The notes: generated by a model not told the origin, from the sequence alone. Numbered from the stretch's first letter, positions 1 through 10,477 are shown. The stretch: 52,997 nt of DNA from a virus (IMGVR_UViG_2585427779_000013:1-52997); one strand, 5' to 3'. A program made the numbers and translations.

Positions 1-231
1 TTATGTATTATCTTTGGCTGACGTTAAACCAATCTGATCAAAGAACTGCATTACGTCCTGATAGCGGTACATAACGCCACGACCGTTACCAAGTACATCA
101 ACCGGGTCGGGGAACGGAGTTCCGTTCCGTTCCCATTTTTTACGCCATAAATAAAATGTTCCCCTGCTAATTCCACCAAGCATCCGGCAGATGGCAGGGC
201 GACTAAGAAGGATTGTCCCTGTTTTATCCAT
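1..231 (-). CDS. AlpA/Vis-like phage transcriptional regulator or excisionase-like protein (76 aa)
   Basis: Small basic protein with HTH-like segment (RGTFYLWRKKWERNGTPFP) typical of AlpA family; stop codon at 1-3; sits at the end of the minus-strand early arm where xis/alpA usually lies. Confidence 0.55.
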   Translation of the reverse strand: MDKTGTILLSRPAICRMLGGISRGTFYLWRKKWERNGTPFPDPVDVLGNGRGVMYRYQDVMQFFDQIGLTSAKDNT

Positions 232-884
232 TATTTACCTCCCGTGTACTCAACGTGTCCGATACATCCATCAATAATAGCTTGCGCCATATTGCGATAA
301 TCGCACGTAAATTCACTGTCACGGCTAAAGTCAATCTCTTTTGCCGCGTCTTCACCCATTACCTTAGTGGCAAGTGCAAACGCGATTTCAGCGAGCGCCT
401 TTTCTTTCGGATCAATATGAACTCGATACGAGTATTGTTTCCATGCAATCGGCGTCTCAATACCATTCTCTAACTTACTGTGAGCAATAGACCACTTATC
501 GCCAATGTAGAAAAACTTAACCACATCAATCACTCTGTCACTTGCTAATCCGATGCAATCAAGCCACACGCCAATCGGAGGCTTTTCTCCTGCCGACCAT
601 TCCGTTTTTTCTTGTTGCGTTTCGCAATCATGGCGCTCATCTTCGATCAGTTCATCAATAATTTCGCTTTCTTTGTTCATACCGTCATCATCCTTTTCAG
701 AGTAACGCACAAAGCGCCACGTATTAGCCATCAGCGTATAAGATTCACCGCCTACCTTAGATCCGGCGTAATACTCCGTCCCAAAATCGTAATAACTTGA
801 AAACGTGGTTACTTCAAAAGGCTGAATATCACCACGGAAGCGGTGGAACATTGCGCCTATTGCAAAAGGGGTTTTCTTCGTCAT
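231..884 (-). CDS. hypothetical phage protein (217 aa)
   Basis: Long ORF, acidic central region, tightly packed between neighbouring genes (stop/start spacing 1 nt with upstream ORF). Confidence 0.5.
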   Translation of the reverse strand: MTKKTPFAIGAMFHRFRGDIQPFEVTTFSSYYDFGTEYYAGSKVGGESYTLMANTWRFVRYSEKDDDGMNKESEIIDELIEDERHDCETQQEKTEWSAGEKPPIGVWLDCIGLASDRVIDVVKFFYIGDKWSIAHSKLENGIETPIAWKQYSYRVHIDPKEKALAEIAFALATKVMGEDAAKEIDFSRDSEFTCDYRNMAQAIIDGCIGHVEYTGGK

Positions 885-1696: not shown

Positions 1697-1903
1697 TTAC
1701 ACAATCCGCATTGTGTTTCGCAATTCCCCACGCAGCGCCCGCAATGCATCGTGCATTGGCACAAAAACCCGGTTAAATTTTACGTGTTTATATTTCCGCA
1801 TCAGTGGCGGTGTATACACCTTTGCGTCGTATACTTCCCACGGATAATAAACGCGCGTATCGTCGACAAACGTTTCAACTGAATAAAAGATTACCCGTCT
1901 CAT
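1697..1903 (-). CDS. hypothetical protein (68 aa)
   Basis: ORF in the nin-like region, overlaps upstream gene end by 4 nt. Confidence 0.45.
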   Translation of the reverse strand: MRRVIFYSVETFVDDTRVYYPWEVYDAKVYTPPLMRKYKHVKFNRVFVPMHDALRALRGELRNTMRIV

Positions 1904-2457
1904 AATTCTAACCCCGTTTCACCGTTAAGTTTTTCGATCTCAAATACTGGTTTATCCGGTAACAGGCCGTTATTTTTCCGGTATTCATTCAGGCGGCTGT
2001 CAAAATCAAACGCGAGATCATTAGCGTGACCAAAGCGCCCAGGTTTAAACAGTGAGTAAAAGTTAAGGCCGTGTTTATTGGTGTCTATGCAAAGCGTTTC
2101 ATCAAGTACCATTAAACGCAGCGTGCGCGACAGGTAATTCCACGGGATACCAGTTTCCGCGCTAATGTCACGCATACGCTTCTTAACGCTGTAGTCACTA
2201 AATAACGCCGCCACACGATCACGACGTTGTGCATACAAATATTTAATTCGATACCCCAATAATCTGCGGCGCGGTCCGAAATATGTATATACACGCTCGA
2301 CAATACCAGTATCAATCAAGTGTTTAATTGTCTCAGGCAAACATCCGGCTTCGTCATATTCCGCTGATAATCCGGTTTTCTGGCGTAGCTGGTGCATTGT
2401 TGCGATGCCGTCCAGTTCAAGGATATTGATAACTTTTGTTTCAAGTTCAATGCTCAT
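1900..2457 (-). CDS. hypothetical protein with N-terminal winged-helix-like segment (185 aa)
   Basis: Track ORF 1900-2493 uses a GTG; ATG at 2457 (MSIELETK...) has a GAGG RBS 10 nt upstream. Confidence 0.5.
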   Translation of the reverse strand: MSIELETKVINILELDGIATMHQLRQKTGLSAEYDEAGCLPETIKHLIDTGIVERVYTYFGPRRRLLGYRIKYLYAQRRDRVAALFSDYSVKKRMRDISAETGIPWNYLSRTLRLMVLDETLCIDTNKHGLNFYSLFKPGRFGHANDLAFDFDSRLNEYRKNNGLLPDKPVFEIEKLNGETGLEL

Positions 2458-2536
2458 TGTTTTTCGCCTCGTTTTAAGCGCGAAAACAGCCACCAGAAAG
2501 AGATCAACTTTCCGGTAAGCCGTTTGCTCAAGTTAA

Positions 2537-3958
2537 TTAAAAGGATGCGTTATTCTGGTTATTTCGTGGGGAGAATCGGCTTGCTGCCGGACGTTGTTGC
2601 ATTGACTGGATGCAGGCGGACGCCGCGCGAGCCTGGTCGCATGGAATGATGTTGCCGTTATCGTCAAACCGCTGGTAAACAGTCCCCGTTTTCCCGTGAC
2701 GGTTTTTTGAAACAATGATCTCCATGTATTCGCGGGCAACTGATTGTTCGTTGTAGTAGCCGTCGCGGTAGACCATGATGATCCGGTCTGCGTCTTGTTC
2801 AAGATTACCGGAATCACGCAGATCAGAATTGTTCGGGCGCTTGTTCGGTCGTTCTTCAACGCGGCGGGATAATTGCGCCAGCGCCGCCACTGGCACGCGC
2901 AACTCTTTCGCCATCATTTTCAATGACCACGACAATTGCCCTACGGCGAGATCATGACGTTCGGCCTTAGCCAGCTTCATTAACCCGATGTAGTCAATCA
3001 TCACCATTCCAAGATTAGGATGGTCCTGTTTCATCCGTTCGACGGTGGCGCGTATTTCCTCGACCGTTAACTGAGATGCGTCAACAATCCACACATCGAG
3101 ATCGGCAAGGGCACTCATTCCTTGTGCGACGTGCGCCCAACCTTCGTCATCCAGTTTTACCGGATTACGTAGGCAATCCGTTGATAAGTTCCCAGCGCCA
3201 GCGATAGCACGTTCAGTCATCTGATCGAGCGACATCTCAAGCGTGAACAGCAAAACGCCGACCCGCTGACCTTCGCCGCCAGGGTATGGACGTTCAGCCG
3301 CCGCGCGGGCAATTGCCAACGCCAACGCCGATTTACCAGACCCCGGGCGTCCGGCGATAAGCACCAGATCAGTAGCGTTAATGCCGCCTAACATTTCGTC
3401 GAGTGGGTCAATCCCTGTTTTGATGTTGTCAGAGTTCACGCCACACTCCATGCGTTTACTTAGCACTTCCGTGTATTCCTGGACCGCATCGCGCAACAGC
3501 ACCGGGATAATTTGATCTTTTGTTACCTTTAATTTTGAATACCGGGAATCAAAATCTTTCATCGTCTCTTTGACGACTTCAAGCGTCCCTGTTTCCAGTT
3601 TGTAGCGCATATCGTCGATGAGTTCCAACATCTGCCGACGCTGGTGCTCTTCACGTAGTAGCTGTGCGTATCCCTTCAGGTTGGCAGCAGAAGGGCACGA
3701 TCGCGCCGTTTGCATTAGCGGCACAAAGTTTTCATTACCAATCTCATCACCAACCAGTAACGCGTCGATGAGATTTCTGTTTCTGGCTTGCGCACGGATA
3801 ATTTCAAAAGCCCGCTTATATAGCGGAATAGTGAATACTTCAGGATCTAGAGTAGCGAGAACGTCTTGCGCGTTAGGAGTAAGCCCACCTAACAGCAGGC
3901 CACCGATAACCGCAGATTCTCTTTCTTGCCGCAATGAGTTTACTTGTTCGGTTATCAT
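2537..3958 (-). CDS. dnaB: DnaB-family replicative DNA helicase
   Basis: 473 aa; Walker A GRPGSGKSALALAIA, DnaB-like N-terminal domain and RecA-fold C-terminal motifs; GGAGG RBS upstream. Confidence 0.9.
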   Translation of the reverse strand: MITEQVNSLRQERESAVIGGLLLGGLTPNAQDVLATLDPEVFTIPLYKRAFEIIRAQARNRNLIDALLVGDEIGNENFVPLMQTARSCPSAANLKGYAQLLREEHQRRQMLELIDDMRYKLETGTLEVVKETMKDFDSRYSKLKVTKDQIIPVLLRDAVQEYTEVLSKRMECGVNSDNIKTGIDPLDEMLGGINATDLVLIAGRPGSGKSALALAIARAAAERPYPGGEGQRVGVLLFTLEMSLDQMTERAIAGAGNLSTDCLRNPVKLDDEGWAHVAQGMSALADLDVWIVDASQLTVEEIRATVERMKQDHPNLGMVMIDYIGLMKLAKAERHDLAVGQLSWSLKMMAKELRVPVAALAQLSRRVEERPNKRPNNSDLRDSGNLEQDADRIIMVYRDGYYNEQSVAREYMEIIVSKNRHGKTGTVYQRFDDNGNIIPCDQARAASACIQSMQQRPAASRFSPRNNQNNASF

Positions 3959-3976: not shown

Positions 3977-5095
3977 TTACAAAATGGAATATTCAGGGTA
4001 ATAAACAAAGCGCCCGATTTCTCCATGATCCGGGCTGTAAATAATCACCGCTGCCAGCCGCCGCGACCGCCAACCACCATTCGTTGAATAAGCGTCTTTG
4101 CCAGCTAACGTGCCGTGATACTCAACAACGCCTAACGATGACTCAATCAGCCGTTGATGATGCCAGTGCCCGCAATGAGCGTAAACCGCCGCAGACTTGC
4201 CGAAATCCTCACGCCAGTCAGATACGCAAGCAGACAATAAATTTTCCGGCTTTTTGATAGTGTGCCCGTGGTGGTAAGCAAGGAATGTTTTGCCGTACTG
4301 TGTGTGGTGGACGATAGCAGGGGACACATCAACCGTCACGCGCGGTTCATCTTCGTAAAAAGCCGCCAGCGCCGCGCGTAGCCAAATCATGCCTGACTGA
4401 TCGTGATTGCCTGATAACACCTGGATTTCAACATCCTTATGATTTAGTAACATCTTCCCGACCGCACGCCGGACCGACCGGATCGCCACGTAAACCAGTT
4501 TTGCGTAGCGTGAATCGCAATCCAGGACGTGATTGCTTGATGGCGTCACTGGTAACAGGCCGTCAGTATGAAGCACATCACCGCCGAGAAGTAAAACAGC
4601 CTTTTCAGACATTGGCGCAGCGCCTACCGCGTAGTCGAAGAAATCATTTAGCACACGTTCAGCGATCCCGGTGTCGTAGCTTTCGCCGCATTCAGCTTTA
4701 TGAGCAAGCGCCCCGATATGTAGATCGAATACCGGATAAAGGGCCAGGCTTTTTTGGAAATCAATTTCCGGCACTGGCACGGCCTCCGCGCGTGGCATAT
4801 CTTCCGTGAAAGCATCGCAAGCCGCTTGCATTAGCCTTTCCATTTCATCGCGATCACGGGCTGTTTTAATCCAGCGCATAATCACATTGCCATCCTTATC
4901 GACGAGCAAAGACTCACCATTGATGCCAAAACCAGGCGCGCGACGCGTGGATATTAAACCGCGCTTTGCCAATCGTGCGCCCAGCCGTTCGACGTTGCGT
5001 TTTGCCATGCCGTACTTTTCAGCGATCTGTTTATATGTCAGGCCGCTGTTATGTTCAGCGATTAGTTGTTCATCGCTGATCTTTCTTTGTGACAT
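3977..5095 (-). CDS. HTH domain fused to calcineurin-like metallophosphoesterase (372 aa)
   Basis: N-terminal HTH (LTYKQIAEKYGMAKRNVERL); C-terminal motifs GDVLH, GNHD, HHGH, HCGHWHH typical of metallophosphoesterases; occupies the helicase-loader position between initiator and DnaB. Confidence 0.7.
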   Translation of the reverse strand: MSQRKISDEQLIAEHNSGLTYKQIAEKYGMAKRNVERLGARLAKRGLISTRRAPGFGINGESLLVDKDGNVIMRWIKTARDRDEMERLMQAACDAFTEDMPRAEAVPVPEIDFQKSLALYPVFDLHIGALAHKAECGESYDTGIAERVLNDFFDYAVGAAPMSEKAVLLLGGDVLHTDGLLPVTPSSNHVLDCDSRYAKLVYVAIRSVRRAVGKMLLNHKDVEIQVLSGNHDQSGMIWLRAALAAFYEDEPRVTVDVSPAIVHHTQYGKTFLAYHHGHTIKKPENLLSACVSDWREDFGKSAAVYAHCGHWHHQRLIESSLGVVEYHGTLAGKDAYSTNGGWRSRRLAAVIIYSPDHGEIGRFVYYPEYSIL

Positions 5096-5256
5096 AACGT
5101 TACTTCCTCATGTTTACAGAATGTATATTTATTTTCCGTAAAACGCGCTACAACGCAAAATTCCACCGCGTAACCCATTTGTAAGGGTGCAGTGTCTTTT
5201 TTGCGCCAGAGGCGCTATCAGGTGGCTAATTTTCGATTTACAGACTGGTAGGTAGG

Positions 5257-5358
5257 TTATGGATTAACGAGAAGGTACAAACCGCCGAACAAAGCGACGT
5301 TAACAGCGATTACCGCAGCGATGGCAAAAGCCAGGGCGAAAACGTGTTTACCGTCCAT
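5257..5358 (-). CDS. small hydrophobic peptide (33 aa, MDGKHVFALAFAIAAVIAVNVALFGGLYLLVNP)
   Basis: ATG ORF with AGAGGA RBS 7 nt upstream; single predicted TM helix; not in ORF track (<60 aa). Confidence 0.3.
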   Translation of the reverse strand: MDGKHVFALAFAIAAVIAVNVALFGGLYLLVNP

Positions 5359-5490
5359 TTTAAAATCCTCTCTGTAACGCTCTATAACGAGCTAATCGCA
5401 AAAGGTAAGCAAGTGTAGCCCCATATGCGATTTAGCTCGCTGGTGAGGTTGTTTTGTGGGTAATTTTGGATTTTTGCGGATCGTGGTTGG

Positions 5491-6543
5491 TCAAAGAACG
5501 CCAGCGCGTGTATCACGTAGCGTTTTTGGTTTAAGCAGGAAATCAAGTGTCGCAGTAAAGCCATTGCCGAAGTAAAAATCTGAAGCCGTGTTTTTGAACG
5601 TTTCGAAGTAGGCGACAAAGCCGTTAATGCTTTTGTCTTTCAGGTAGTCAGTGAACGCATAGATCTTGCGTTCAAGATCCCGATCCAGTTCGGCAGGTGG
5701 TAACAGGCCGTCAAACGTGCTGTTAAATGCTTCCACCACGTCGGCAGCGTTTACAGTAGCTGATAGCTTGCGCCATTGTTCAGCATCAGCCAAATACCCA
5801 TCAAACTTAGTTACCCGGCAAATGTTGATAGGCTTAGGTGTTCCGCCACGGCTACGCCATTGCGTTAAAGCCCACTCAATCACTAATGTGATCTCATCCT
5901 CCGTATACGCTTTACGTGTTTTTGTTTCTGTCAGTAGTTCTACGAATGGCTTAGCGTCACGACATTTGCATCCTGCCTTGTCGTTGTAGAAGGCAAGGCA
6001 ACGCAATGCCGCTTCGTTTACGCCATCCTGATTGACCATTTTTTGTTCATTTTCGACAATACACGAAGTGTATATATCTTTTTCTCTTTCTTTTTCTACT
6101 TCTAATTCTAATTCATGACCCTTTCCTGACCCGGTCATGACCCTATCATGACCTTTTTGTGTTGGATTGATTAACTTTTCTAATTTTAATTGCTCCTTCG
6201 CTGTGTTTATGGCGGCCCTGTAAGCGCTTTTAGAAGTCATTGATTGGTCCAGCCTTTTCAATAACTTTAAACAAGTTATGTGGCCTTGAGAACATTCAAA
6301 CAAACCAATTTCGATGAAGTATTTCATCATTTCTTCTATACGTTTTTCAGTAGATCCGACGTTTCGCGCAATTATTCTTGCGTCATGTCGTAGGTCAAAA
6401 GTTAGATTGTGCTGATCTACGTCATAAGTTATTAGTTCTAGGCAATACCAATAAAGCCCGTACCCTTCCAGGCCATAATCTAATAAAACGTTTTGAAGTT
6501 TTTCATCGCGGTTCGCATCGCTATCATGCTTAAACCACTTCAT
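5491..6543 (-). CDS. phage replication initiation protein (O-like replisome organizer)
   Basis: 350 aa; N-terminus MKWFKHDSDANRDEKL is the hallmark of phage replisome-organizer N-domains by recall; lies immediately upstream of helicase module. Confidence 0.75.
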   Translation of the reverse strand: MKWFKHDSDANRDEKLQNVLLDYGLEGYGLYWYCLELITYDVDQHNLTFDLRHDARIIARNVGSTEKRIEEMMKYFIEIGLFECSQGHITCLKLLKRLDQSMTSKSAYRAAINTAKEQLKLEKLINPTQKGHDRVMTGSGKGHELELEVEKEREKDIYTSCIVENEQKMVNQDGVNEAALRCLAFYNDKAGCKCRDAKPFVELLTETKTRKAYTEDEITLVIEWALTQWRSRGGTPKPINICRVTKFDGYLADAEQWRKLSATVNAADVVEAFNSTFDGLLPPAELDRDLERKIYAFTDYLKDKSINGFVAYFETFKNTASDFYFGNGFTATLDFLLKPKTLRDTRAGVL

Positions 6544-6546
6544 AGA

Positions 6547-6801
6547 TCATTCCTCCGGCAATGCAATGTCATAAATGTCGCCGTATTCGTCAGCGCGTTT
6601 AATGAATCCTTTGCGGATCAATGAATTTAATGCGTCAACAGCAGTATGCAGTGGCAGTTCGCACACTTTTGCGATCTCTTCGCGTGAAGCATGTGCGCGG
6701 CCTTTGTTGTCTGCCTTTTCTGCAAACGCAATTAAGACAAGTTTTTGGATCGGGCTGTTAAGTTTTACGTTCCATGCTTCATTCATCATGTGCATACTCA
6801 T
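6547..6801 (-). CDS. winged-helix/HTH DNA-binding protein in Cro/CII position (84 aa)
   Basis: HTH segment ASREEIAKVCELPLHTAVDALNSLIRKGFI; first gene of minus-strand operon divergent from repressor; GGAGA RBS. Confidence 0.65.
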   Translation of the reverse strand: MSMHMMNEAWNVKLNSPIQKLVLIAFAEKADNKGRAHASREEIAKVCELPLHTAVDALNSLIRKGFIKRADEYGDIYDIALPEE

Positions 6802-7107: not shown

Positions 7108-7755
7108 ATGAAAACAAAATGGTATGACTTAGCAAAGCAGCTCATGCGGGCGCAGGGCATGAGTCAGGATTCACTCGCAGATCTCATGGGGATAACTAAA
7201 GGCGGCCTGTCACACTGGCTTAACGGTCGCCGCGAGCCAAATCTTGAAGATATTGCGCGGATTATGCGGGCGCTTGGGCGTCGTCAGTTCACTGTTACAC
7301 ATGATGGTATGGTCATTGATGATTCTGTTTCTAATACACTTCAGGCCGCACCGCCGCGTGATTTAGGTAGTTACCCGGTTATTGACTGGAAGGACACAGT
7401 AAACAATATGGATGACACAAGGCGATCAGCATTACCACACGTTACGACTAGCGTTATTTGTTCAGATGATAGTTACTGGCTGGTTGCCAAAGGTGAATCA
7501 ATGAACGCGCCGCAGGGGTTAAGCATCCCGGCGGGGACGATGATACTTGTTGACCCGCACGCGCCAGCTATTGACGGCAAACTGGTTATAGCCCAGCTTG
7601 AGGAAGGGCAGATACCGACGTTTAAACAGTTGATTATTGATGGAGGTCAAAGGCTTTTACGTTCGCTGAATCCGCTGTATCCGCCAATCCCTATGAATCC
7701 AGAATCAAAAATTATAGGCGTGGTGGTTGATGCGAAGATCGTAACCCTGCCATAA
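7108..7755 (+). CDS. CI-like phage repressor (HTH plus LexA/S24 peptidase domain)
   Basis: 215 aa; N-terminal XRE-type HTH; C-terminal S24 autoproteolysis motifs (AKGESM serine, TFKQL lysine). Confidence 0.85.
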   Translation: MKTKWYDLAKQLMRAQGMSQDSLADLMGITKGGLSHWLNGRREPNLEDIARIMRALGRRQFTVTHDGMVIDDSVSNTLQAAPPRDLGSYPVIDWKDTVNNMDDTRRSALPHVTTSVICSDDSYWLVAKGESMNAPQGLSIPAGTMILVDPHAPAIDGKLVIAQLEEGQIPTFKQLIIDGGQRLLRSLNPLYPPIPMNPESKIIGVVVDAKIVTLP

Positions 7756-7760
7756 ACATT

Positions 7761-7786
7761 AGCCGCCGAATGGCGGCTTTTCTTTG
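7761..7786 (+). terminator. rho-independent terminator after repressor gene
   Basis: Hairpin AGCCGCC-GAAT-GGCGGCT followed by TTTTCTTTG. Confidence 0.6.
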
Positions 7787-7878
7787 CCTGGAAAACACCA
7801 AAACGTAAACAGAAAACGTTATTTATTATTTAAATATCAATGGTATATAAAATATTATAAAAAAGTATACAAAATGGA

Positions 7879-7907
7879 TTGACTCGGTGTTTTACGGGGC
7901 GTATATT
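7879..7907 (+). promoter_or_regulatory. candidate sigma70 promoter (PL-like)
   Basis: TTGACT (7879-7884), 17-bp spacer, TATATT (7902-7907); motif TATACAAAATGG ends 2 bp upstream of the -35. Confidence 0.45.
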
Positions 7908-8255
7908 GCGAATCAAAGGAAGGGCGCAGGTAACAAAAGCAACTTCCTGGCACTTTAAAAATCAGGCTTAACACCTTGTCAACCGTGGAGTAACTCCCCG
8001 ATGGGGGACCGAAAGCGGCACTGATAACAAGGCGCATGGGGTGTTTAAAGCGTTACATCCCCCACGAAACCGCACGCAAGGCGACGAGTCAGCTTGCTTG
8101 GAGTGAGCAAGGTCACGCCGGGAACGGCGATGATTGCGGGATTAGTTGAAAGATGTTAAGCCGCTCATTAACAATCTGGTCAGCCGCTGGAAGTGCGGCA
8201 ATTAACGAAGATGATTTTTTATTAAGTATCATCAAGGATATACGGAGATCAGATT

Positions 8256-8546
8256 ATGAGCGTTACAATTATATATGGTAAATGTGATAGCAAAATGAAT
8301 GCCAGGGAACGCAGAAGGATAAAAAGAGAAAACGAAAGAAAATCATCACCTGCAATCAATAAAACAGACAATGTGGATAAAGCTATTCGATTTGCAAACG
8401 AGGAAAGATGCAAACCAAATAGCATTAAAGAACGTCGCAAAGGATCAGTAAAATGGTATACGGAAAATGAAAGCGGCAGCTACTACCACGCAACGCAACC
8501 ACGCCATTTAGGGGAAAAACCCCTAGATAAAGTCCGCTATCATTAA
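8256..8546 (+). CDS. putative N-like antitermination protein (arginine-rich motif)
   Basis: 96 aa; segment MNARERRRIKRENERK resembles the ARM of lambda N (MDAQTRRRERRAEKQ) by recall; GGAG RBS before 8256; alternative start at ATG 8295 would place the ARM at the N-terminus. Confidence 0.45.
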   Translation: MSVTIIYGKCDSKMNARERRRIKRENERKSSPAINKTDNVDKAIRFANEERCKPNSIKERRKGSVKWYTENESGSYYHATQPRHLGEKPLDKVRYH

Positions 8547-8695
8547 TACAAAATGTAAACATCCGGAGATGACATTATGGTTATTCAGGCGCTTCAATTC
8601 AAACTGGCAGTAGCGGAAATGCTTCACGATGCCGAAATGTGGAGCGCCGCGAATAAAGCCTTATACATAGTGTTAACAGCGAAGGAGGCTAGTTA

Positions 8696-9226
8696 ATGTC
8701 TTATTCAAAACATGGAATGACGCACACAAAACTTTATGAAGTTTTTAAAGGAATGAAAACGAGATGCAGGAAAACCGATAAGAATCCACGAAATAAACAC
8801 TATAAGGATAAGAATATAACTATATGTGATGAATGGTTGAATGATTCATCAAAGTTTATTGAGTGGGCTTTCAATAACGGTTATCAGGAAGGGTTAGAGA
8901 TAGACAGAATTGATAACGACAAAGGTTATTCACCGGATAATTGCCGATGGGTTACACATGCTGAAAACATGCGCAATACATGTAGAACTACGATGTTAAC
9001 AGTGAGCGGGGAAACTAACACAATACATTATTTTTCCGAAAAATACGGTATATGTGAACGCACCATATATACAAGATTACGTCGCGGCTGGAGTCATGAG
9101 GCCGCTGTACTTCTTCCTTTAAGAAAGGGGAAACGATGTGAAGAAAGATTTATACAAAAAATTGTGGCTAATTCAGCAACAATTAAAAGCGCCAAAATCT
9201 CAGCGCAATTCATACGGTGGATATAA
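8696..9226 (+). CDS. HNH homing endonuclease
   Basis: 176 aa; pattern FKGMKTRC...ICDEW...IDRIDNDKGYSPDNCRWVTHAENMRN typical of phage HNH endonucleases; 3' end overlaps erf by 89 nt. Confidence 0.65.
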   Translation: MSYSKHGMTHTKLYEVFKGMKTRCRKTDKNPRNKHYKDKNITICDEWLNDSSKFIEWAFNNGYQEGLEIDRIDNDKGYSPDNCRWVTHAENMRNTCRTTMLTVSGETNTIHYFSEKYGICERTIYTRLRRGWSHEAAVLLPLRKGKRCEERFIQKIVANSATIKSAKISAQFIRWI

Positions 9227-9779
9227 TTACAGATCGGCGGAGGATATTTTAGAGGCTGTTAAGCCTTTATTGGAAGGCATTACGTTAACGCTTAATGATG
9301 AAGTGGTGTTAATTGGTGATCGTTATTACATTAAAGCAACAGCGATATTGAGCGATGGTGAAGATGAAATAACGGCTACTGCTTTCGCCCGCGAGGAAAA
9401 AGAACAAAAAGGCATGTCGTCTGGTCAGTTAACTGGCGCGACTTCTTCTTATGCTCGCAAATATTGTTTAAACGGCTTGTTCTGTATCGACGACGCAAAA
9501 GATCTGGATAGCGACGCTTACGCGAAGCAGACAGGCCAGCAGCCGCGACAACAGAAAAACCCACCAAAACAACAACCGCAGCAGAAGAAAGCGCCGCCAA
9601 ATCCTGATGAAGTATTAGCACGTTTCTGTGATGCAGCAGCGAAAGCGCAGGACGCTAACAAGCTGCGTGAAATATTTGGCAAATGCTGGAAATTACTACC
9701 GGAAGGATCGGAGCATCGAATCAAGGCAAAAGATGTTTATGACATCCGGGTAGCAGAGCTTAACGGGGAGATGGGTTAA
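9138..9779 (+). CDS. erf: Erf-family single-strand annealing recombinase
   Basis: GTG start with GGGG RBS; N-terminal region closely resembles P22 Erf (…YRSAEDILEAVKPLL…IGDRYYIKATA…TGATSSYARKYCLNGLF) by recall. Confidence 0.85.
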   Translation: MKKDLYKKLWLIQQQLKAPKSQRNSYGGYNYRSAEDILEAVKPLLEGITLTLNDEVVLIGDRYYIKATAILSDGEDEITATAFAREEKEQKGMSSGQLTGATSSYARKYCLNGLFCIDDAKDLDSDAYAKQTGQQPRQQKNPPKQQPQQKKAPPNPDEVLARFCDAAAKAQDANKLREIFGKCWKLLPEGSEHRIKAKDVYDIRVAELNGEMG

Positions 9780-10183
9780 TGAGTTTAAATTCAATCACGC
9801 TGGGCGGGAATATCGGTAATGATATGGAGGTTCGCTACACACAAAACGGGAAAGCGATTGGTAGTTTTCCGTTAGCTGTAACGAATGGCTACGGCGATAA
9901 TAAGCGGACAATGTGGGTCACTTGCCTGGTATTTGGTGAGCGTGCGGAAAAATTAGCGCCACATATCCGCAAGGGTGGAAAAATAGTGGTAAGCGGTCGC
10001 CTAGATGTTCGGCAATATGACCGGAACGACGGCACGAAGGGAACTGCGGTAGAAGTGGCGGTCAATGAGTTTGAGTTCATGGCTGTTAACCAGCAAGGCC
10101 AGCAGCAGAAAGCGCCGCCGCAGCAGCAGAATAATAACGGGAATAATGTTCCTCCTGACTTCGATGACGACATCCCGTTTTAA
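9779..10183 (+). CDS. ssb: single-stranded DNA-binding protein
   Basis: 134 aa; OB-fold SSB pattern, Gln/Pro-rich linker and acidic C-terminal tail DFDDDIPF. Confidence 0.9.
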   Translation: MSLNSITLGGNIGNDMEVRYTQNGKAIGSFPLAVTNGYGDNKRTMWVTCLVFGERAEKLAPHIRKGGKIVVSGRLDVRQYDRNDGTKGTAVEVAVNEFEFMAVNQQGQQQKAPPQQQNNNGNNVPPDFDDDIPF

Positions 10184-10198
10184 ATCAATAGGTTAGCG

Positions 10199-10477
10199 AT
10201 GGGTGATTATTTAAAACCGCCACCGCCACCGCGAACAAAAGAGCAAGTTCTAAGAGAAGCCCGTGATCAAATCGATCATGGGCTTTTTTTATGCGGAACG
10301 GCAGCGGAACGGATGGCAAAAAGATTTAGTGACCTGTACGCAAAACAAATATGGCTCGACAACTGGCAGGCAAGTTTTTATCCGCTGCAAAGAAAACCGG
10401 ATATGCACTGGCCTGAATATGTCGATCCACGTATGCGCAAATATCGCGGGCGTATGGGCCAGGTTATTAACGATTAA
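10199..10477 (+). CDS. hypothetical protein (92 aa)
   Basis: ORF in co-directional early cluster. Confidence 0.45.
   Translation: MGDYLKPPPPPRTKEQVLREARDQIDHGLFLCGTAAERMAKRFSDLYAKQIWLDNWQASFYPLQRKPDMHWPEYVDPRMRKYRGRMGQVIND

What the first reader, a model, noticed from the sequence alone, without database searches (positions are those of the whole stretch)
3977..5095. HTH-metallophosphoesterase fusion in the helicase-loader position of the replication module
Between the initiator (5491-6543) and the DnaB helicase (2537-3958), where lambdoid phages usually encode a P-type helicase loader or DnaC-like ATPase, lies a 372-aa protein with an N-terminal HTH and a calcineurin-like phosphoesterase core (GDxxH, GNHD, HCGHWHH). 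Lambda carries a separate NinI phosphatase further downstream. A phosphoesterase here could be a novel loader or replication regulator, or a nuclease.
Basis: partly seen in the sequence, partly recalled or inferred. Interest (0 to 1): 0.5.

Follow-up and report, generated by a model that had tools for sequence, protein, structure and literature searches.

The report
Common phage Mre11-like phosphoesterase gene
The gene is real and encodes a DNA-binding domain fused to an intact metal-dependent phosphoesterase that most resembles Mre11/SbcD DNA nucleases, but the family occurs in over two thousand phage genomes in many different gene neighbourhoods, so it is most likely a stand-alone nuclease and not a new helicase loader.

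Summary
The ORF at 3977-5095 (-), 372 aa, is as described. It has an N-terminal helix-turn-helix (HTH), all five metallophosphoesterase (MPE) motifs, and sits between a replication initiator and a DnaB helicase. The window is a mEp021-like temperate coliphage, a group described as non-lambdoid.

The protein is a full-length member of PHROG family phrog_704 ("DNA repair exonuclease", E 4e-138). Homologues occur in 2044 deposited phage genomes, including T1 gene ST16, and in about 4300 protein clusters at 50% identity. The catalytic residues are conserved across the family.

A DnaB helicase lies nearby in only 1 of 65 independent lineages, the window's own. Elsewhere the gene sits next to lysis genes, tail genes, a terminase, DNA ligase or nucleotide-salvage genes. 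No Rad50/SbcC-like partner was found.

Best reading: a stand-alone DNA nuclease/phosphodiesterase tethered to DNA by its HTH. The helicase-loader idea is not supported. The nearest functional precedents are the mycobacteriophage MPEs Bxb1 gp47 and A10ZJ24 gp48, which belong to a different sequence family.

This is an ordinary member of a widespread family for which I found no experimental study.

The parts
3977..5095 (-). Gene for the 372-aa HTH-metallophosphoesterase (phrog_704 family; homologue of mEp021 gp11 and T1 ST16)
   Evidence: ORF list. phrog_704 E 3.9e-138 over residues 4-368. 97.6% identical to MagusPhagus CDS0008 and 56% to T1 ST16.
5103..5109 (-). Shine-Dalgarno-like GAGGAAG, 7 nt upstream of the ATG
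   Evidence: Read from the sequence.
4964..5074 (-). N-terminal tri-helical HTH (residues 8-44); the most variable part of the family
   Evidence: AlphaFold helices 8-16, 21-28, 32-44. phrog_3855 E 8e-5. HTH_28, Sigma70_r4_2 and GerE hits in relatives. The Campylobacter homologue lacks it.
4805..4930 (-). Conserved beta-hairpin plus helix (residues 56-97) preceding the catalytic core; includes near-invariant G69 and W75
   Evidence: Model strands 56-65 and 71-80, helix 82-97. Family matches begin at about residue 53. Conservation.
4001..4756 (-). Metallophosphoesterase catalytic core (residues 114-365)
4718..4726 (-). Motif I, D124-x-H126
   Evidence: D124 and H126 are invariant in 45 diverse homologues.
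4568..4582 (-). Motif II, G172-D173-x-x-H176
   Evidence: G172 and D173 invariant, H176 at least 90% conserved.
4508..4549 (-). Family-specific conserved segment VTPxSxHxLDxDxR (residues 183-196) after motif II
   Evidence: T184 invariant; D192, D194 and R196 at least 90% conserved. Low model confidence at 184-186.
4400..4411 (-). Motif III, G229-N230-H231-D232
   Evidence: N230 and H231 invariant.
4262..4273 (-). Motif IV, H275-H276-G277-H278
   Evidence: H276 invariant.
4157..4171 (-). Motif V, G309-H310-W-H312-H313
   Evidence: G309 and H312 invariant, H310 at least 90% conserved.
2537..3958 (-). Context: DnaB-family replicative helicase, next gene downstream (18-nt spacer with GGAGG)
   Evidence: DnaB_C E 1e-75, DnaB N-terminal domain E 6e-12. 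Spacer read.
5491..6543 (-). Context: replication initiator / replisome-organizer-like protein, next large gene upstream
   Evidence: Lin1244_N E 7e-11. PHROG families labelled replication initiation O-like and replisome organizer.

Best explanation
The gene encodes a stand-alone, catalytically competent binuclear-metal phosphoesterase of the Mre11/SbcD/PolD-DP1 structural class. It is fused to its own N-terminal helix-turn-helix.

Inferred mechanism: the HTH tethers the enzyme to DNA. The two-metal site (D124, H126, D173, N230, H231, H276, H310, H312) hydrolyses DNA phosphodiester bonds as an exo- and/or endonuclease acting at ends or unusual structures. It works without a Rad50/SbcC-type ATPase.

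In this phage the gene is co-transcribed with the early replication genes. It would serve phage DNA metabolism, either by processing ends and intermediates during replication and recombination, or by breaking down DNA to mononucleotides for salvage. It is an accessory DNA enzyme that happens to lie beside DnaB in this lineage. It is not a helicase loader.

Shown: gene, domains, intact motifs, fold class, family size and variable context. Inferred: the substrate (DNA) and the biological role.
For: All five MPE motifs are invariant or nearly so across 45 homologues at 25-57% identity. They are kept in at least 96% of 327 family members.

DNA binding: an HTH or comparable N-terminal module precedes motif I by at least 120 residues in 61 of 63 lineage representatives. 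Relatives give significant HTH family hits.

Recurrent neighbours are DNA and nucleotide enzymes: dNMP kinase (phrog_139), HAD PNKP-type phosphatase, HD 5'-dNMP phosphatase, DNA ligase, Dam, NinB and NinG.

[quoted passage not shown] A10ZJ24 gp48 has phosphodiesterase activity and damages host DNA (PMC12287305).
Against: There is no biochemical or genetic data for any member of this family in the literature I could search.

Sequence-profile links to Mre11 are not significant: E 0.07 and hhalign probability 5% against T4 gp47.

The protein has no Mre11 capping domain and no Rad50/SbcC partner, so the substrate could differ.

The frequent position next to lysis genes (11 of 65 lineages) is not explained by a DNA-metabolism role.
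Confidence: 0.5

Rival explanations
1. Helicase loader or replication regulator. The protein binds the phage DnaB helicase or the origin and loads or regulates the helicase. The phosphoesterase fold serves as a scaffold or regulatory activity.
For: In this window and in about 40 mEp021-like relatives the gene lies in the early operon directly upstream of DnaB. Eukaryotic and archaeal polymerase B-subunits/DP1, which are replisome subunits, are among the best structural matches. Bxb1 gp47, an MPE, is required for phage DNA replication (PMC11795197). Some T1-like phages also carry a DnaB-like helicase a few kb away.
Against: A DnaB homologue lies within six genes in only 1 of 65 lineages. The gene sits beside lysis, tail, terminase or ligase genes elsewhere. 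Homing-endonuclease-type genes separate it from its neighbours in mEp021. There is no match to any loader family (lambda P, DnaC/AAA+, G39P, DnaD) in Pfam, PHROG or NCBIfam. The upstream HTH_36 and Lin1244_N proteins already match PHROG initiator, replisome-organizer and DnaD-like loader families. A strictly conserved catalytic site argues for an enzyme, not a scaffold. From general knowledge, P22 pairs an initiator with its own DnaB-type helicase and has no separate loader.
Confidence: 0.04
2. Nucleic-acid end-healing enzyme. It acts as a 2',3'-cyclic phosphodiesterase or 3'-phosphatase that cleans broken RNA or DNA ends, together with a kinase/phosphatase and a ligase. This would resemble the phosphoesterase domain of bacterial Pnkp.
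For: The gene is followed by a HAD PNKP-type phosphatase and a small P-loop kinase in three unrelated phage groups: Era103, Kagunavirus XY1 and a Webervirus-like lineage. It lies next to an ATP-dependent DNA ligase in Era103 and Campylobacter phage CP39. From general knowledge, Clostridium thermocellum Pnkp uses a calcineurin-type MPE domain for end healing.
Against: This cluster is present in only 4 of 65 lineages and is absent from the window. The P-loop protein matches dNMP kinase (phrog_139, E 1.5e-47), not polynucleotide kinase. No RNA ligase is present. The best structural matches are nucleases.
Confidence: 0.12
3. Small-molecule phosphodiesterase used as counter-defence or in signalling. 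It would degrade cyclic mono-, di- or oligonucleotide messengers or other nucleotides.
For: MJ0936, YfcE and Rv0805-type phosphodiesterases are also good structural matches. The gene occupies variable, accessory-like positions. It forms its own transcription unit between terminators in T1, sits among tail genes in Jerseyvirus, and lies between lysis and terminase genes in Dhillonvirus.
Against: A nearly universal N-terminal HTH is unexpected for a messenger-degrading enzyme. The gene is very strongly conserved and is kept in whole phage families, unlike typical anti-defence accessories. There is no PADLOC or defence-related match. The top Foldseek hits are all Mre11.
Confidence: 0.12
4. Bifunctional transcription regulator. 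The HTH binds specific phage or host promoters, and the phosphoesterase domain senses or modulates a ligand.
For: The HTH types seen in the family (sigma-70 region 4, LuxR/GerE, HTH_28) are typical of sequence-specific regulators. The gene often sits at boundaries between transcription modules, near lysis or late genes.
Against: The HTH is the least conserved part and is missing in the Campylobacter phage homologues, whereas the catalytic core is invariant. No target sites were identified.
Confidence: 0.07
5. Lambda NinI-type (PPP family) protein Ser/Thr phosphatase displaced into the replication module.
For: It belongs to the same calcineurin-like superfamily. Lambdoid phages carry NinI between the replication and late genes.
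Confidence: 0.02

Closest known systems
PHROG family phrog_704 ('DNA repair exonuclease'; T1 ST16, mEp021 gp11, Era103 gp26, 16-3 p044)
   Same: Full-length profile match (E 3.9e-138). Same HTH + hairpin + MPE architecture and same invariant residues.
   Different: Nothing of substance; this protein is a member. The family name is a prediction, and I found no experimental study.
Mre11 / SbcD nucleases (E. coli SbcD, archaeal Mre11, T4 gp47)
   Different: No C-terminal capping domain and no Rad50/SbcC/gp46 partner gene. An N-terminal HTH is present. Sequence-profile similarity is not significant.
Archaeal PolD small subunit DP1 and eukaryotic polymerase B-subunits
   Different: No OB-fold domain. 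No polymerase catalytic subunit is annotated in the closely related MagusPhagus genome. The context is not tied to replication genes in most lineages.
Mycobacteriophage Cluster A metallophosphoesterases (Bxb1 gp47, A10ZJ24 gp48)
   Same: Phage MPEs encoded among replication genes, with Mre11/DP1/LpxH as structural neighbours. They are needed for phage DNA replication and have measurable exonuclease or phosphodiesterase activity.
   Different: About 255 aa with motif I near residue 10 and no HTH. hhalign probability is only 12.9% over 40 columns, so this is a separate sequence family. Bxb1 gp47 also acts as a serine-integrase directionality factor, for which there is no hint here.
Phage helicase loaders (lambda P, DnaC-type AAA+, SPP1 G39P)
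   Same: Only the position between an initiator and a DnaB-type helicase, in this one lineage.
   Different: No sequence or fold relationship. No conserved linkage to DnaB.
Lambda NinI (PPP-family Ser/Thr phosphatase)
   Same: Same superfamily; a phage-encoded early/nin-region enzyme.
   Different: Different motif signatures, distant fold rank, and hhalign probability 0.7%.

Membership tests
Calcineurin-like metallophosphoesterase superfamily | Five metal-binding motifs: DxH, GDxxD/H, GNH[D/E], H, GHxH | tested here: met
   D124-H126, G172-H176, G229-D232, H276 and G309-H312 are present and invariant or nearly so in the family.
Calcineurin-like metallophosphoesterase superfamily | Beta-alpha-beta-alpha-beta sandwich fold matching solved MPE structures | tested here: met
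Calcineurin-like metallophosphoesterase superfamily | Match to Pfam PF00149 or PF12850 above threshold | tested here: inconclusive
   The window protein has no Metallophos hit even at E of 1 or less. Of 45 relatives, 16 hit PF00149 (best E 2.7e-5) and 12 hit PF12850.
phrog_704 (phage 'DNA repair exonuclease') | Full-length match to the family profile | tested here: met
   E 3.9e-138, residues 4-368 against profile positions 2-387 of 390.
Mre11/SbcD nuclease family | Nuclease-type phosphoesterase core as the closest structural neighbour | tested here: met
Mre11/SbcD nuclease family | C-terminal capping domain following the nuclease core | tested here: not met
   The model ends with core strands at 346-365 of 372 residues. 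Only about 186 of 319 SbcD residues align.
Mre11/SbcD nuclease family | Adjacent Rad50/SbcC/gp46-type coiled-coil ATPase partner | tested here: not met
   None in the closely related MagusPhagus genome. No large N-terminal P-loop neighbour within three genes in 65 lineages, apart from one terminase.
Mre11/SbcD nuclease family | Significant sequence-profile similarity | tested here: not met
   Family profile against PDB sequences: best Mre11/SbcD E 0.07. hhalign against T4 gp47: probability 5%. No NCBIfam hit.
PPP-family protein phosphatase (lambda NinI) | GDxHG / GDxVDRG / GNHE signatures and a PPP-like fold | tested here: not met
Helicase loaders (lambda P, DnaC AAA+, G39P, DnaD-like) | Homology to a loader family | tested here: not met
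   No such hit in Pfam, PHROG or NCBIfam.
Helicase loaders (lambda P, DnaC AAA+, G39P, DnaD-like) | Conserved genetic linkage to a replicative helicase | tested here: not met
   A DnaB homologue lies within six genes in 1 of 65 lineages.
Helicase loaders (lambda P, DnaC AAA+, G39P, DnaD-like) | Physical binding to and loading of the helicase | not testable with these tools
   Needs complex prediction or biochemistry.
Bxb1 gp47 / A10ZJ24 gp48 mycobacteriophage MPE family | Sequence homology beyond the shared superfamily motifs | tested here: not met
   hhalign probability 12.9%; only motifs IV-V align, over 40 columns.
Bxb1 gp47 / A10ZJ24 gp48 mycobacteriophage MPE family | Requirement for phage DNA replication; nuclease activity | not testable with these tools
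   Shown for gp47 and gp48 in PMC11795197 and PMC12287305. Untested for this family.

The most novel reading that the evidence does not exclude
The HTH-phosphoesterase is a replisome-associated exonuclease. It would be a DP1-like editing, primer-removal or flap-removal nuclease. Phages that encode a helicase but no polymerase (mEp021-like phages, T1) would add it to the host replication machinery, making it a functional counterpart of Bxb1 gp47 that is required for phage DNA replication.
Probability: 0.08. Interest if true: 0.65.

Novelty: new member of a known kind. Interest (0 to 1): 0.27.

Why it matters
The window's gene is unremarkable on its own. The family it belongs to is large: about 4300 clusters at 50% identity and more than 2000 sequenced phages, including the classic phage T1. 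It is strongly conserved and catalytically intact, has no dedicated Pfam family, and has no experimental study that I could find.

Establishing its substrate would annotate thousands of phage genomes at once. It would also show whether an Mre11-like nuclease can work without a Rad50 partner by carrying its own DNA-binding domain.

For this scan the practical result is negative. The position next to DnaB does not indicate a new type of helicase loader.

Tried and rejected
1. Helicase loader by position. Rejected after sampling contexts by hand and across 327 loci dereplicated to 65 lineages.

2. PPP/NinI-type phosphatase. Rejected by motifs, fold ranking and hhalign.

3. Same family as the characterised mycobacteriophage MPEs. 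Rejected; hhalign probability 12.9%.

4. Orthologue of SbcD/Mre11 with a Rad50-like partner. No partner, no capping domain, and no significant profile match.

5. Defence or anti-defence label. No PADLOC match. The bacterial Metis and PUA-Cal-HAD papers concern host MPEs, not this family.

6. Literature searches for functional data on T1 ST16-type proteins returned only genome-annotation papers.

7. A locus search with the diverse alignment A2 failed for lack of a conserved peptide stretch. It was replaced by several narrower queries.

8. The paper on Bxb1 gp47 and replication (PMC3273658) is not held, so it is cited only through PMC11795197.

9. The profile search of the protein database added few new diverse sequences.

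Full report
**1. Observation**

The ORF at 3977..5095 on the minus strand exists, starts with ATG and encodes 372 aa. A Shine-Dalgarno-like GAGGAAG lies 7 nt upstream. Its N-terminus (MSQRKISDEQL...) aligns with the N-termini of homologues from other phages, so the start is sound.

This gives the complete five-motif signature of binuclear metallophosphoesterases (MPEs).

The N-terminal helix-turn-helix (HTH) is supported on three counts:
- The AlphaFold model has three helices at residues 8-16, 21-28 and 32-44.
- The window protein gives weak HTH profile hits and matches phrog_3855 at E 8e-5.
- Relatives give significant hits to HTH_28, Sigma70_r4_2 and GerE.

The flanking genes are as stated. 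2537-3958 is a DnaB-family helicase. 5491-6543 carries a Lin1244_N domain and matches PHROG families for replication initiators and replisome organizers. It is preceded by an 84-aa HTH_36 protein at 6547-6801.

**2. What the window is**

The left 9 kb is 88-94% identical to Escherichia phages MagusPhagus, mEp515, mEp010, mEp554, mEp021, mEp044 and mEp013. These form the 'mEpimmI' group of Nus-dependent temperate coliphages, which their describers call non-lambdoid (PMC11893012).

In mEp021 the homologue is gp11, annotated 'hypothetical protein'. In MagusPhagus the 97.6%-identical gene is annotated 'DNA repair exonuclease'.

**3. Family**

- The protein matches PHROG family phrog_704 ('DNA repair exonuclease') over its full length at E 3.9e-138.
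- A translated search finds homologues in 2044 of 50,697 deposited phage genomes, 1959 of them covering at least 80% of the protein.
- These include T1 (ST16, 56% identity), most T1-like Escherichia, Klebsiella and Shigella phages, Jerseyvirus and Kagunavirus of Salmonella and E. coli, and Dhillonvirus. Others are the SP6-like Erwinia phage Era103, Rhizobium phage 16-3, and Vibrio, Rhodobacter, Campylobacter and Flavobacterium phages.
- An exhaustive HMMER scan of 1.84 billion cluster representatives finds 4312 clusters at E of 1e-3 or less and 921 at 1e-30 or less. Most are 370-420 aa.
- No Pfam family is dedicated to it. The window protein misses Pfam Metallophos entirely, and 16 of 45 relatives hit it only weakly.

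Across 45 homologues at 25-57% identity, the invariant residues are D124, H126, G172, D173, T184, N230, H231, H276, G309 and H312. H176, D232, H278 and H310 are at least 90% conserved. The motifs are kept in at least 96% of 327 members collected from viral contigs.

The enzyme is therefore under selection as a catalyst. The conserved unit begins at about residue 53, with a beta-hairpin and a helix. The HTH in front is the variable part and is absent from Campylobacter phage homologues.

**4. Fold class**

The AlphaFold2 model was built on 45 homologues and has mean pLDDT 78 and pTM 0.67. The core is mostly above 85, with low-confidence loops at 134-138, 184-186 and 332-344.

| Method | Best matches | Distant or absent |
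|---|---|---|
| Foldseek vs PDB | Ranks 1-7 all Mre11, E 1.6e-7 to 2e-6; then PolD DP1, Rv0805, Vps29, LpxH | No PPP phosphatase in the top 50 |

hhalign of the family profile gives probability 0.7% against lambda NinI. Against T4 gp47 the probability is only 5%, but the alignment spans the whole core through motifs I, II, III and V.

The margin over small phosphodiesterases is modest, and sequence-level similarity to Mre11 is not significant. The protein also has no Mre11 capping domain, since the chain ends with the core. It works like that class but is not a member of the Mre11/SbcD family.

**5. Genomic context**

Contexts sampled by hand differ widely:

| Phage or locus | Neighbourhood of the homologue |
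|---|---|
| T1 (ST16) | After Dam and small ORFs; its own terminators; followed by an HNH endonuclease and the lysis cassette |
| Jerseyvirus f18SE | Short divergent unit in the middle of the tail genes |
| Dhillonvirus | Between lysis genes and the terminase |
| Era103 | After the exonuclease and endonuclease; before a HAD PNKP-type phosphatase, a P-loop kinase and DNA ligase |
| Kagunavirus XY1 | Followed by a second small phosphoesterase, the same HAD phosphatase and the same kinase |
| Campylobacter CP39 | Follows DNA ligase |
| Rhodobacter RcWhiteOak, several metagenomic phages | Beside endolysin genes |

To quantify this I collected 327 loci with up to 8 kb of flank. I called ORFs, dereplicated the family at 70% identity into 65 lineages, and clustered the six genes on each side.

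| Neighbour within six genes | Lineages of 65 |
|---|---|
| DnaB homologue | 1 (the mEp021-like lineage itself) |
| T4-type lysozyme | 11 |
| dNMP kinase (phrog_139) | 4-7 |
| HAD PNKP-type phosphatase | 4 |
| HD 5'-dNMP phosphatase | 4 |
| DUF6378 | 3-4 |
| NinG | 3 |
| NinB | 3 |

The only large P-loop (Rad50/SbcC-like) protein found within three genes is a terminase. The closely related MagusPhagus genome has Erf, SSB, Abc2, NinB and NinG, but no SbcC-like gene and no DNA polymerase.

Spacing varies even inside the mEp021 group. The gap from initiator to phosphoesterase ranges from 0.4 to 1.9 kb. About 0.5 kb is inserted before DnaB in some members. In mEp021 the inserts are a DUF4379/CapR/T5orf172 protein and an HNH endonuclease, both of the homing-endonuclease type.

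The 'helicase-loader position' is thus an accident of one lineage. In addition, the upstream HTH_36 and Lin1244_N proteins already match PHROG families labelled initiator, replisome organizer and DnaD-like loader. From general knowledge, P22 pairs an initiator with its own DnaB-type helicase and has no separate loader.

**6. Mechanism proposed**

Shown:
- an intact two-metal phosphoesterase site;
- an Mre11/SbcD/DP1-like core;
- a fused HTH in nearly all lineages;
- no ATPase partner;
- co-transcription with early replication genes in this phage (18-nt spacer and its own ribosome-binding site before DnaB);
- recurrent linkage elsewhere to DNA and nucleotide enzymes.

Inferred: the HTH holds the enzyme on DNA, and the core cuts DNA as an exo- or endonuclease at ends or unusual structures. 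This would serve replication and recombination intermediates, or the conversion of DNA into mononucleotides that neighbouring dNMP kinases and nucleotidases would then handle. I put 0.5 on 'DNA nuclease/phosphodiesterase acting alone on DNA'. I have much less confidence in any one physiological role.

Rivals, in order:
1. End healing with PNKP-like enzymes and ligase, 0.12.
2. Small-molecule or messenger phosphodiesterase, 0.12.
3. Bifunctional regulator, 0.07.
4. Helicase loader or replication regulator, 0.04.
5. PPP-type protein phosphatase, 0.02.

**7. Comparison with what is known**

The closest experimentally studied analogues are the Cluster A mycobacteriophage MPEs.
- A10ZJ24 gp48 has phosphodiesterase activity, damages host DNA and is needed to overcome host defences (PMC12287305).

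Those proteins are about 255 aa, lack an HTH, and align with this family only around motifs IV-V (hhalign probability 12.9%). They are a functional precedent and not the same family. I found no experimental study of phrog_704 members.

**8. Verdict**

The 'novel loader' option is not supported.

The gene is a routine member of a very widespread, already annotated phage family for which I found no experimental study. I classify it as a new member of a known kind, with interest about 0.27. The residual interest lies in the family as a large 'known unknown', and in the small chance that it is a replisome-associated exonuclease like Bxb1 gp47.

Noticed in passing
window 1-52997: The window is essentially a whole genome of a mEp021-like ('mEpimmI') Nus-dependent temperate coliphage, a group described as non-lambdoid. 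Over its first 9 kb it is closest to Escherichia phage MagusPhagus (94% identity over the matched part). It is not a lambdoid prophage.
   Followed up: partly
L001 (mEp021) 6080-6583 and 7737-9224; L003 (T1) 7207-7689; L014 7051-7572: Homing-endonuclease-type genes repeatedly flank the phosphoesterase gene in relatives: HNH, or DUF4379+CapR+T5orf172. Among about 40 mEp021-like loci the initiator-to-phosphoesterase gap varies from 0.4 to 1.9 kb. The window has the shortest, insert-free form.
   Followed up: partly
window 5491-6801 (-): The replication initiator function appears split into two adjacent ORFs 3 nt apart: an 84-aa HTH_36 protein (6547-6801) and a 350-aa Lin1244_N protein (5491-6543). 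The same arrangement is annotated in mEp021 (gp14/gp13).
   Followed up: no
window 5096-5490 (-): The 395-bp spacer upstream of the phosphoesterase gene holds only tiny ORFs, including a 33-aa hydrophobic peptide (MDGKHVFALAFAIAAVIAVNVALFGGLYLLVNP). MagusPhagus annotates three small hypothetical genes there.
   Followed up: no
L007 4998-7244 (Era103), L011 5001-7788 (XY1), L097 about 8001-10232: Three unrelated phage groups carry the same three-gene cluster: the HTH-phosphoesterase, then a HAD PNKP-type phosphatase, then a small P-loop kinase (phrog_139, dNMP kinase). This suggests a shared nucleotide-salvage or end-processing module. The window lacks the other two genes.
   Followed up: partly
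65 dereplicated family loci (e.g. L003, L014, L070, L097, L134, L258): The family gene lies within six genes of an endolysin in at least 11 of 65 lineages, often at the junction of the tail and lysis modules. No function proposed here explains this recurrent position.
   Followed up: partly
window 231-884 (-) and 1900-2493 (-): The 217-aa ORF next to the excisionase-like gene has no hit in Pfam, PHROG or PADLOC. The 197-aa ORF after DnaB has only weak PHROG hits to families labelled 'MarR family regulator' and 'Ren-like exclusion protein'.
   Followed up: no
window 8696-10477 (+): On the other side of the repressor gene lie an HNH-looking 176-aa ORF, then Erf-like (9138-9779) and SSB (9779-10183) genes. 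The next ORF is probably the Abc2-like anti-RecBCD gene. These assignments come from synteny with MagusPhagus and mEp021 annotations and indicate a P22-type recombination set. The window ORFs themselves were not scanned.
   Followed up: no
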